Assembly (NCBI RefSeq): GCF_024298765.1
Contig: NZ_CP101210.1
Direction: 5' to 3' (one strand)
Source: Escherichia coli
Lineage (GTDB): Bacteria > Pseudomonadota > Gammaproteobacteria > Enterobacterales > Enterobacteriaceae
Length of the DNA: 64,000 bases
Shown: piece after piece, positions 40,992 through 43,900 of the stretch
Position numbering within the stretch: position 1 is the first letter of the stretch
How the letters are laid out: each line of letters begins with the position of its first letter
Program-made: the position numbers

Positions 40992-43900
40992 TAAGTTTGC
41001 GTTTTACCCTCACCCTAACCCTCTCCCTAAGGGAGAGGGAACCGATCGAGCGCAATAGAAATTCATTGCTCATCTTTCAGGGTGAGGAATGCAGCAATAT
41101 TTAAATCCACCACAAGAAGCCCCATATATGAAAAACGCAACGTTCTACCTTCTGGACAATGACACCACCGTCGATGGCTTAAGCGCCGTTGAGCAGTTGG
41201 TGTGTGAAATTGCCGCAGAACGTTGGCGCAGTGGTAAGCGCGTACTCATCGCCTGTGAAGATGAAAAGCAGGCTTACCGACTGGATGAAGCCCTGTGGGC
41301 ACGTCCGGCAGAAAGCTTTGTTCCGCATAATTTAGCGGGAGAAGGACCGCGCGGCGGTGCGCCGGTGGAGATCGCCTGGCCGCAAAAACGCAGCAGCAGC
41401 CCGCGCGATATATTGATTAGTCTGCGAACAAGCTTTGCAGATTTTGCCACCGCTTTCACAGAAGTGGTAGACTTCGTTCCTTATGAAGATTCTCTGAAAC
41501 AACTGGCGCGCGAACGCTATAAAGCCTACCGCGTGGCTGGTTTCAACCTGAATACGGCAACCTGGAAATAATGGAAAAGACATACAACCCACAAGATATC
41601 GAACAGCCGCTTTACGAGCACTGGGAAAAGCAGGGCTACTTTAAGCCTAATGGCGATGAAAGCCAGGAAAGTTTCTGCATCATGATCCCGCCGCCGAATG
41701 TCACCGGCAGTTTGCATATGGGTCACGCCTTCCAGCAAACCATCATGGATACCATGATCCGCTATCAGCGCATGCAGGGCAAAAACACCCTGTGGCAGGT
41801 CGGTACTGACCACGCCGGGATCGCTACCCAGATGGTCGTTGAGCGCAAGATTGCCGCAGAAGAAGGTAAAACCCGTCACGACTACGGCCGCGAAGCTTTC
41901 ATTGACAAAATCTGGGAATGGAAAGCGGAATCCGGCGGCACCATTACCCGTCAGATGCGCCGTCTCGGCAACTCCGTCGACTGGGAGCGTGAACGCTTCA
42001 CCATGGACGAAGGCCTGTCCAATGCGGTGAAAGAAGTTTTCGTTCGTCTGTATAAAGAAGACCTGATTTACCGTGGCAAACGCCTGGTAAACTGGGACCC
42101 GAAACTGCGTACCGCTATCTCTGACCTGGAAGTGGAAAACCGCGAATCGAAAGGTTCGATGTGGCACATCCGCTATCCGCTGGCTGACGGCGCGAAAACC
42201 GCAGACGGTAAAGATTATCTGGTGGTTGCGACCACTCGCCCGGAAACCCTGCTGGGCGATACCGGCGTGGCCGTTAACCCGGAAGATCCGCGTTACAAAG
42301 ATCTGATTGGCAAATATGTCATTCTACCGCTGGTTAACCGTCGTATTCCGATCGTTGGCGACGAACACGCCGACATGGAAAAAGGCACCGGCTGCGTGAA
42401 GATCACCCCAGCGCACGACTTTAACGACTATGAAGTCGGTAAACGTCACGCCCTGCCGATGATCAACATCCTGACCTTTGACGGCGATATCCGTGAAAGC
42501 GCCCAGGTGTTCGATACCAAAGGTAACGAATCTGACGTTTATTCCAGCGAAATCCCGGCAGAGTTCCAGAAACTGGAGCGTTTTGCTGCACGTAAAGCCG
42601 TCGTTGCTGCGGTTGACGCGCTCGGCCTGCTGGAAGAAATTAAACCGCACGACCTGACCGTTCCTTATGGCGACCGTGGTGGCGTGGTTATCGAACCGAT
42701 GCTGACCGACCAGTGGTACGTACGTGCCGATGTACTGGCGAAACCGGCAGTTGAAGCGGTTGAGAATGGCGACATTCAGTTCGTACCGAAGCAGTACGAA
42801 AACATGTATTTCTCCTGGATGCGCGATATTCAGGACTGGTGTATCTCTCGTCAGCTATGGTGGGGTCACCGTATCCCGGCATGGTATGACGAAGCGGGTA
42901 ATGTTTATGTTGGCCGCAACGAAGACGAAGTGCGCAAGGAAAATAACCTCGGTGCCGACGTTGCCCTGCGTCAGGACGAAGACGTTCTCGACACCTGGTT
43001 CTCTTCTGCGCTGTGGACCTTCTCTACCCTTGGCTGGCCGGAAAATACCGACGCACTGCGCCAGTTCCACCCAACCAGCGTGATGGTATCTGGTTTCGAC
43101 ATCATCTTCTTCTGGATTGCCCGCATGATCATGATGACTATGCACTTCATCAAAGATGAAAATGGCAAACCGCAGGTGCCGTTCCACACTGTTTACATGA
43201 CCGGTCTGATTCGTGACGACGAAGGCCAGAAGATGTCCAAATCCAAGGGTAACGTTATCGACCCGCTGGATATGGTTGACGGTATTTCGCTGCCAGAACT
43301 GCTGGAAAAACGTACCGGCAATATGATGCAGCCGCAGCTGGCGGACAAAATCCGTAAGCGCACCGAGAAACAGTTCCCGAACGGCATTAAGCCGCACGGC
43401 ACCGATGCCCTGCGCTTCACCCTGGCGGCGCTGGCGTCTACCGGTCGTGACATCAACTGGGATATGAAGCGCCTGGAAGGTTACCGTAACTTCTGTAACA
43501 AGCTGTGGAACGCCAGCCGCTTTGTGCTGATGAACACAGAAGATCAGGATTGCGGCTTCAACGGCGGCGAAATGACGCTATCGCTGGCGGACCGCTGGAT
43601 TCTGGCGGAGTTCAACCAGACCATCAAAGCGTACCGCGAAGCGCTGGACAGCTTCCGCTTCGATATCGCCGCAGGCATTTTGTATGAGTTCACCTGGAAC
43701 CAGTTCTGTGACTGGTATCTGGAGCTGACCAAGCCGGTAATGAACGGTGGAACAGAAGCCGAACTGCGCGGTACTCGCCATACGCTGGTGACTGTACTGG
43801 AAGGTCTGCTGCGCCTCGCGCATCCGATCATTCCGTTCATCACCGAAACCATCTGGCAGCGTGTGAAAGTACTTTGCGGTATCACTGCCGACACCATCAT

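What the first reader, a model, noticed from the sequence alone, without database searches (positions are those of the whole stretch)
40995..41127. Nested inverted repeats in the pepA-holC intergenic region
CCCTCACCC ... GGGTGAGG encloses CCCTCTCCC-TAA-GGGAGAGGG. This is a strongly structured element without a following T-run, so it looks more like an RNA stability or processing element, or a REP-like unit, than a simple terminator.
Basis: seen in the sequence. Interest (0 to 1): 0.2.

Follow-up and report, generated by a model that had tools for sequence, protein, structure and literature searches.

The report
Known BoxC repeat behind pepA
The nested hairpins between pepA and holC are a copy of BoxC, a known small E. 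coli repeat, plus a probable leftover of a second inverted copy, so the feature is real but ordinary and already catalogued.

Summary
There is a 9-bp stem with a 3-nt loop (41019-41039). It sits inside a perfect 9-bp outer inverted repeat (41008-41016 / 41079-41087) in the 133-nt pepA-holC spacer.

It is not a new element. Read on the minus strand, 41039..41006 is CCCTCTCCC-TTA-GGGAGAGGG-TTA-GGGTGAGGG-T. This matches exactly the published consensus of the E. coli BoxC repeat, type A. The same repeat is also called PIT, TMECO and the HPG1 G-quadruplex motif. This very copy is listed for E. coli HS and SE11 in Holder et al. 2015, Table S8.

The outer right arm is probably a relic of a second, inverted BoxC copy. 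In seven other enterobacterial species the same spacer holds an inverted pair of copies. The last G-block of that pair lies 35-41 nt before the holC start codon; here the distance is 40 nt.

The locus is polymorphic. About 26% of complete E. coli genomes carry this allele. The other alleles examined, including K-12, carry one to four REP/BIME units instead.

No terminator or promoter consensus is present. According to Holder et al. 2015, earlier tests found no promoter or terminator activity for the family. An RNA-stability role is untested.

Novelty: already known. Interest: low.

The parts
40995..41056 (-). Complete BoxC unit with its family-specific flanks: GTTTGCGTTTTA, then the core, then AACCGATCGAGCGCAAT. 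It begins directly after the pepA stop codon.
   Evidence: A BLAST search of 40995-41100 against complete E. coli genomes finds dispersed matches covering query positions 5-62, with a median of 20 places per genome. The K-12 hrpB-mrcB copy is 92.6% identical. The same flanks occur in the K-12 hrpB-mrcB, phnE-phnD, tusA-zntA and lldD-trmL copies.
41006..41039 (-). Core motif of type A: CCCTCTCCC-TTA-GGGAGAGGG-TTA-GGGTGAGGG-T. Published names are TMECO, PIT and BoxC. Its 21-nt G-rich part is the HPG1 G-quadruplex motif.
   Evidence: A regular-expression search with the published consensus CCCTCNCCC N3-6 GGGNGAGGG N3 GGGNGAGGG[GTC-] gives one hit in the window, at 41007-41039 on the minus strand. 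The consensus is from PMC4666352. The HPG1 sequence GGGAGAGGGTTAGGGTGAGGG is from PMC5100583.
41019..41039 (.). Inner hairpin: 9-bp stem CCCTCTCCC/GGGAGAGGG with a TAA loop. This is the Watson-Crick part of the BoxC unit.
   Evidence: RNA hairpin -17.9 kcal/mol. DNA hairpin about -10 kcal/mol on either strand.
41007..41015 (.). Third block of the BoxC unit: CCCTCACCC on the + strand, GGGTGAGGG on the minus strand. It is the Hoogsteen strand of the published triplex model and also forms the left arm of the outer inverted repeat.
41077..41088 (+). Lone G-block TCA-GGGTGAGG-A, which reads TTA-GGGTGAGG-A in E. coli HS and SE11. It is the right arm of the outer inverted repeat and a probable relic of a second, inverted BoxC copy.
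   Evidence: It ends 40 nt before the holC ATG. The terminal block of the + copy ends 35-41 nt before the ATG in seven other species. The TTA variant is seen in HS and SE11. The 8-mer is rare in the window. CTTTCAGGGTGAGG matches K-12 copy #8 at 13 of 14 positions, with flank-shuffle p of about 0.03.
41057..41076 (.). Spacer between the BoxC unit and the relic. It shows no family similarity and forms a weak imperfect hairpin with 41047-41055.
41101..41127 (+). Conserved holC leader TATTTAAATCCACCACAAGAAGCCCCATAT. It is shared by all E. coli alleles examined and, with a few substitutions, by most of the other genera examined. It is not part of the repeat and marks the right edge of the variable slot.

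Best explanation
The spacer holds one complete BoxC repeat (also published as PIT, TMECO and HPG1) of type A. Its G-rich strand is the minus strand, and the unit starts directly after the pepA stop codon. A lone G-block about 40 nt further on is most likely what remains of a second, inverted BoxC copy.

The inner hairpin is the Watson-Crick part of the unit. The outer stem arises because the third block of the unit (CCCTCACCC) is complementary to the relic block (GGGTGAGG).

Shown here: the identity of the element, its multicopy dispersal, and the fact that it is one of several alternative occupants of this intergenic slot.

Inferred: it is a dispensable, selfish or neutral structural repeat rather than a dedicated regulator of pepA or holC. 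If pepA transcripts read into it, they would carry a very stable hairpin with no U-tract. At most this could slow 3' exonucleases, as REP elements do. As single-stranded DNA the G-rich strand can fold into the published triplex or G-quadruplex. That may contribute to the local rearrangement seen at this locus.
For: - Exact match to the TMECO consensus, type A (consensus from PMC4666352).
- The flanks match K-12 BoxC copies, 92.6% over 53 nt.
- The family is dispersed: a median of 20 places per genome and 23 in MG1655 derivatives, equal to the 23 published. Only 74 of 97,490 places are on plasmids.
- The identical 34-mer is listed in Holder et al. Table S8 for E. coli HS and SE11. Those coordinates lie between holC and pepA.
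- Only 1404 of 5425 matching genomes carry this allele. Five other alleles inspected, including K-12, have one to four BIME units.
- Across 77 species the slot holds REP in at least 48, BoxC in 12 and ERIC in 7.
- Seven species have an inverted '- then +' pair whose last block ends 35-41 nt before the holC ATG, against 40 nt here.
- No terminator or promoter consensus was found.
- Holder et al. 2015 report that earlier work found no promoter or terminator activity. Their own work found triplex formation in vitro and raised variability around these elements.
Against: - No function has been shown for any BoxC copy, so the selfish-or-neutral reading is a default, not a demonstration.
- In vivo DMS footprinting did not detect the triplex, and the duplex wins in vitro once the complement is present (PMC4666352).
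- How BoxC spreads is unknown, and no transposase or target duplication was seen.
- The relic reading is not settled. Its position and the TTA variant favour the terminal block. The loop similarity to K-12 copy #8 favours the middle block.
- Nearly every species keeps some hairpin-forming repeat in this slot. This could equally mean selection for a structure at the pepA 3' end.
Confidence: 0.9

Rival explanations
1. The element is an RNA stability or processing element. The hairpins in the pepA 3' untranslated region protect the mRNA from 3'-to-5' exonucleases, or set the amount of read-through into holC-valS, as REP/BIME elements do. BoxC and BIME would then be interchangeable fillers of a slot that needs a structure.
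For: - The RNA folds are very stable (-39.8 kcal/mol, z = -6.2).
- The unit starts right after the pepA stop codon here, and 5-26 nt after it in 10 of the 11 other species with a recognisable copy.
- Almost every species examined keeps some GC-rich palindrome in this slot.
- In E. coli the alternative allele is BIME.
Against: - This was not tested, and no transcript data exist for this allele.
- Holder et al. 2015 report that earlier tests of PIT elements found no terminator or promoter activity and no effect on RNA polymerase.
- The family shows no orientation bias relative to genes (PMC4666352).
- Slot occupancy is equally explained by a site that tolerates insertions.
Confidence: 0.2
2. The element acts at the DNA level. 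Triplex, G-quadruplex or cruciform formation by the G-rich strand stalls replication or provokes recombination, which makes this spacer a hot spot. On this view the allele replacement is a consequence of the element itself.
For: - Holder et al. found triplex formation in vitro (Tm 70-82 C), a polymerase stop, and greater variability around TMECO loci than around control sites.
- Kaplan et al. found a G-quadruplex/hairpin switch by circular dichroism.
- This locus is polymorphic.
- Local tandem amplification is seen in Pseudocitrobacter faecalis.
Against: - The triplex was not detected in vivo.
- BIME arrays at the same site also vary in copy number without any BoxC, so the instability is not specific to BoxC.
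- The flanking genes show no excess divergence tied to the allele.
Confidence: 0.25
3. The element is a REP/BIME or IRU/ERIC unit.
For: It is intergenic, palindromic and multicopy.
Against: No REP or ERIC core motif is present in the spacer. The BIME alleles at the same site have a quite different sequence.
Confidence: 0.01
4. The element is the intrinsic terminator of pepA.
For: There is a strong GC-rich hairpin just after the stop codon.
Against: No T-run follows either stem, and the scan found 0 terminator-like sites. No terminator activity is reported for the family.
Confidence: 0.03

Closest known systems
BoxC repeat of E. coli. Also published as PIT elements (Hoyne et al. 2000; Hoyne and Maher 2002), TMECO (Holder et al. 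2015, PMC4666352) and HPG1/HPG2 G-quadruplex motifs (Kaplan et al. 2016, PMC5100583).
   Same: Exact consensus match, type A with the TTA second loop. The flanks are family-specific, the location is intergenic, and there are about 20 copies per genome. This very copy is catalogued for E. coli HS and SE11.
   Different: Nothing essential. The first loop is TTA, where K-12 copies have 3-5 nt loops of other sequences such as TGT or TTGA. The partner copy is reduced to a single block.
K-12 lldD-trmL BoxC pair (TMECO #17 and #18)
   Same: A type A copy on the minus strand starts right after the upstream stop codon with the same GTTTGCG lead-in. A + strand copy lies about 60 nt downstream, so the third blocks face outwards.
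   Different: In K-12 the second copy (type B) is intact. Here only GGGTGAGG survives.
REP/BIME elements
   Same: They occupy the same slot in the other E. coli alleles examined. They are also GC-rich palindromes in 3' untranslated regions.
   Different: The sequence is unrelated, with no GTAG-tagged REP core. REP has a known transposase-like partner and documented mRNA-stabilising activity. BoxC has neither.
IRU/ERIC elements
   Same: They are intergenic imperfect palindromes, and they occupy this slot in Salmonella arizonae and some Citrobacter, Klebsiella and Kosakonia species.
   Different: The sequence is unrelated and the unit is longer, about 127 bp.

Membership tests
BoxC / TMECO / PIT | Consensus CCCTCNCCC N3-6 GGGNGAGGG N3 GGGNGAGGG[GTC-] | tested here: met
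   A regular-expression search hits 41007-41039 on the minus strand, followed by T.
BoxC / TMECO / PIT | Type A (second loop TTA) or type B (second loop CCG or similar) | tested here: met
   The second loop is TTA, so this is type A without a stem mismatch.
BoxC / TMECO / PIT | Multicopy, dispersed and intergenic in E. coli chromosomes | tested here: met
   Median of 20 places per genome, 97,416 chromosomal places against 74 on plasmids, and 23 places in MG1655 derivatives. The copies inspected lie between genes; one match just reaches the phnD stop codon.
BoxC / TMECO / PIT | Similarity extends beyond the core into the roughly 56-bp unit | tested here: met
   The matches cover query positions 5-62. 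GACCGATCGAGCRCAA and GTTTGCG are shared with K-12 copies. The 56-bp size is from PMC2267715.
BoxC / TMECO / PIT | The G-rich strand forms an intrastrand triplex or G-quadruplex in vitro | not testable with these tools
   Shown for type A oligonucleotides that share the three 9-nt blocks and the TTA second loop (Tm 82 C, PMC4666352). Not measured for this copy.
REP / BIME | REP core sequence, such as GCCGGATGCG or GTAGGCC, in inverted pairs | tested here: not met
   No core motif is present in 40995-41127. The BIME alleles are shown for contrast.
IRU / ERIC | ERIC core, such as AATCCCCAGGAGC or GACTGGGGTG | tested here: not met
   No core motif is present.
Intrinsic terminator | A GC-rich stem followed at once by a T-run | tested here: not met
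   0 sites in 40800-41300.
Any Rfam RNA family | A score above the family's gathering threshold | tested here: not met
   The best hit is whalefall-1 at 19.7 bits against a threshold of 37.

The most novel reading that the evidence does not exclude
The gap behind pepA may be a slot that must hold a strong hairpin. Alternatively, palindromic repeats may actively target it. Three unrelated repeat families (BIME, BoxC, ERIC) fill it across Enterobacteriaceae, and two of them coexist as alleles within E. coli. If so, BoxC would have either a real RNA 3'-end role or a site-directed way of moving that nobody has yet identified.
Probability: 0.1. Interest if true: 0.4.

Novelty: already known. Interest (0 to 1): 0.08.

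Why it matters
It matters little as a discovery. The repeat family has been described four times since the 1990s, and this copy is already in a published table.

The useful by-products are modest:
- A clean explanation of the 'nested' structure as a full unit plus a relic of an inverted partner.
- A natural pair of alleles (BoxC versus BIME) at one locus in E. coli. These could serve as a ready-made test of whether either repeat affects pepA or holC-valS expression.

Tried and rejected
- Rfam search at a permissive threshold found only sub-threshold chance hits: whalefall-1, 19.7 bits against a threshold of 37.
- Promoter and terminator scans found nothing.
- REP and ERIC core motifs are absent.
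- The K-12 RefSeq record has no repeat annotation at this locus, only the genes.
- The first literature search, using 'box C', returned noise. The spelling 'boxC' worked.
- The first holC coordinates were out of frame and were corrected.
- The first guess at the K-12 coordinates of TMECO #17/#18 assumed a shift between record versions and landed in gpsA. The paper uses the current coordinates.
- GC skew of the window was uninformative for assigning the replication strand.
- Flank divergence showed no allele-linked peak. It therefore gives no support for an old balanced polymorphism or a recent import.
- Strain BS-04's variant has scrambled G-runs and may reflect assembly error. It was not used.
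- Which block of the lost partner the relic represents could not be settled.

Full report
**Where it is.** The window is E. coli. pepA occupies 39483-40994 and holC starts at 41128; both are on the + strand, with valS following. RefSeq annotation of an identical strain confirms the gene names. The finding's coordinates, 40995-41127, are exactly the pepA-holC spacer.

**The observation.** Both inverted repeats exist.
- The inner one is CCCTCTCCC-TAA-GGGAGAGGG (41019-41039).
- The outer one is CCTCACCCT (41008-41016) paired with AGGGTGAGG (41079-41087), perfect over 9 bp.
- Both appear in the minimum-energy folds of either strand, as RNA or as DNA. The z-scores range from -3 to -6.2, and no shuffle of these nested folds did as well.
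- The inner pattern never arose in shuffles.
- A lone 9-mer inverted repeat is not rare, at about 0.28 expected per 135 nt. But GGGTGAGG occurs only three times in the 64 kb, and two of those are here.
- No T-run follows either stem, and the scan found no terminator or promoter consensus.

**What it is.** On the minus strand, 41039..41006 reads CCCTCTCCC-TTA-GGGAGAGGG-TTA-GGGTGAGGG-T. This is an exact match to the consensus CCCTCNCCC N3-6 GGGNGAGGG N3 GGGNGAGGG[GTC-] given by Holder et al. 2015 (PMC4666352) for 'TMECO'. That paper states that TMECO is the BoxC repeat found in the 1990s and the 'PIT' element of Hoyne and Maher. The TTA second loop makes this copy type A.

The 21-nt G-rich part is also identical to the 'HPG1' G-quadruplex motif of Kaplan et al. 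2016 (PMC5100583).

Similarity to other copies extends beyond the core. A search with 40995-41100 against 5,426 complete E. coli genomes gave a median of 20 places per genome, almost all chromosomal. The matches cover query positions 5-62. The K-12 hrpB-mrcB copy is 92.6% identical. MG1655 derivatives show 23 places, the number Holder et al. report for MG1655. Reading the K-12 copies shows the shared flanks GTTTGCG on one side and GACCGATCGAGCRCAA on the other. This agrees with the 56-bp unit size quoted in PMC2267715.

**Already catalogued.** The exact 34-mer occurs 12 times in the supplementary text of Holder et al. held here. The two entries displayed are E. coli HS 4520554-4520587 and SE11 4763726-4763759. 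I checked that both ranges lie between holC and pepA in those genomes. Their spacers differ from the window at two positions.

**The outer stem.** The left arm is the third block of the BoxC unit. The right arm is not part of the canonical unit in the K-12 copies inspected. Cross-species comparison explains it.

I fetched the holC locus from 80 species and could extract the pepA-holC spacer from 77 of them. In seven of these the spacer holds two BoxC copies. The first is on the minus strand just after pepA and the second is on the plus strand, so their third blocks face outwards. Examples include Pseudocitrobacter species and several unnamed Enterobacter-like species. In those species the last G-block ends 35-41 nt before the holC ATG. 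In the window GGGTGAGG ends 40 nt before it.

In E. coli HS and SE11 the three bases before the block read TTA, which is the type A loop. This is probably the majority form of the allele, because most carriers differ from the window at one base in the 106-nt query. K-12 has the same outward-facing layout intact between lldD and trmL, with the same GTTTGCG lead-in after the stop codon.

The right arm is therefore most likely a leftover of a decayed partner copy. One alternative alignment treats it as the middle block of a type B copy: CTTTCAGGGTGAGG against CTTCCAGGGTGAGG, 13 of 14, flank-shuffle p of about 0.03. I could not decide between the two.

**The locus is polymorphic.**
- Only 1404 of 5425 matching genomes carry this allele.
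- K-12, O157:H7, SF-468 and the other strains examined have one to four tandem REP/BIME units between the same breakpoints.
- All five other Escherichia species representatives have BIMEs.
- Across 77 species, at least 48 hold REP-type repeats in this slot, 12 hold BoxC, 7 hold ERIC, and the remaining 10 mostly hold other GC-rich hairpins.
- Flanking gene divergence shows no peak linked to the allele.

**How it most likely works.** Shown: it is a BoxC unit, and it is dispensable, since most strains lack it.

From the literature:
- The G-rich strand forms a stable triplex in vitro (Tm 70-82 C) and can stop a polymerase in primer extension. The triplex was not detected in vivo, and the duplex wins once the complement is present.
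- The same sequence can switch between G-quadruplex and hairpin forms.
- Earlier tests found no promoter or terminator activity and no effect on RNA polymerase.
- TMECO loci are more variable between strains than control sites.

Inferred: the element is a passive or selfish structural repeat sitting in a tolerant slot. The mRNA-sense strand carries the C-rich block and the hairpin. Any effect on pepA mRNA would therefore come from the hairpin as a 3' exonuclease barrier, by analogy with REP, and this is untested.

At this locus the third block can either join the triplex or pair with the relic block, and the two structures exclude each other. By synteny with K-12 and HS, the G-rich strand should be the lagging-strand template. 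This is an inference from gene orientation and replichore position, and GC skew in the window did not help.

**Verdict.** The element is already known, and interest is low.

Noticed in passing
window 41089-41127: In this allele an ATG at 41089 lies in frame with holC and open, which would add 13 codons (ORF 41089-41571, 160 aa). The preceding GAGG is only 1 nt from the ATG and lies in the outer stem, so use of this start seems unlikely. In K-12 the corresponding ATG is out of frame and soon meets a stop codon.
   Followed up: partly
L001-L005 (E. coli pepA-holC spacers): The alternative allele is a tandem array of BIME units whose copy number varies from one to four between strains. Spacers are 159, 257, 353 and 449 nt, a step of about 96-98 nt.
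   Followed up: partly
L020 (Salmonella enterica subsp. arizonae) and L024, L041, L046, L054, L063, L078: The same spacer holds an ERIC/IRU-like element in these species (core AATCCCCAGGAGC...GACTGGGGTG). Three unrelated repeat families therefore occupy one orthologous slot.
   Followed up: partly
L018 (Pseudocitrobacter faecalis) spacer: The BoxC hairpin plus about 60 nt of spacer is repeated three times in tandem between the two outer copies. This is a local amplification.
   Followed up: no
L022 (Superficieibacter electus) spacer: This is a hybrid spacer: a BoxC copy right after pepA, followed by REP-like units of the kind that fill the whole spacer in its sister species (L014).
   Followed up: no
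L038 and L072 spacers: In some species the slot holds only a short GC-rich hairpin running into TTTGTTTAAAT or TGTCGTTTAAAT, which looks like a plain pepA terminator. The conserved ATTTAAAT before holC may have begun as its T-tail.
   Followed up: no
window 1-32000: The G+C content is lower here (0.435-0.465) than in 32001-48000 (about 0.50), which holds the pepA-valS region. This may be an island, and its contents were not examined.
   Followed up: no
L001 (K-12) between pepA and lptF: K-12 annotation lists two tiny proteins, YtgB and YtgA, in the pepA-lptF divergent spacer. I did not check whether they are intact in the window.
   Followed up: no
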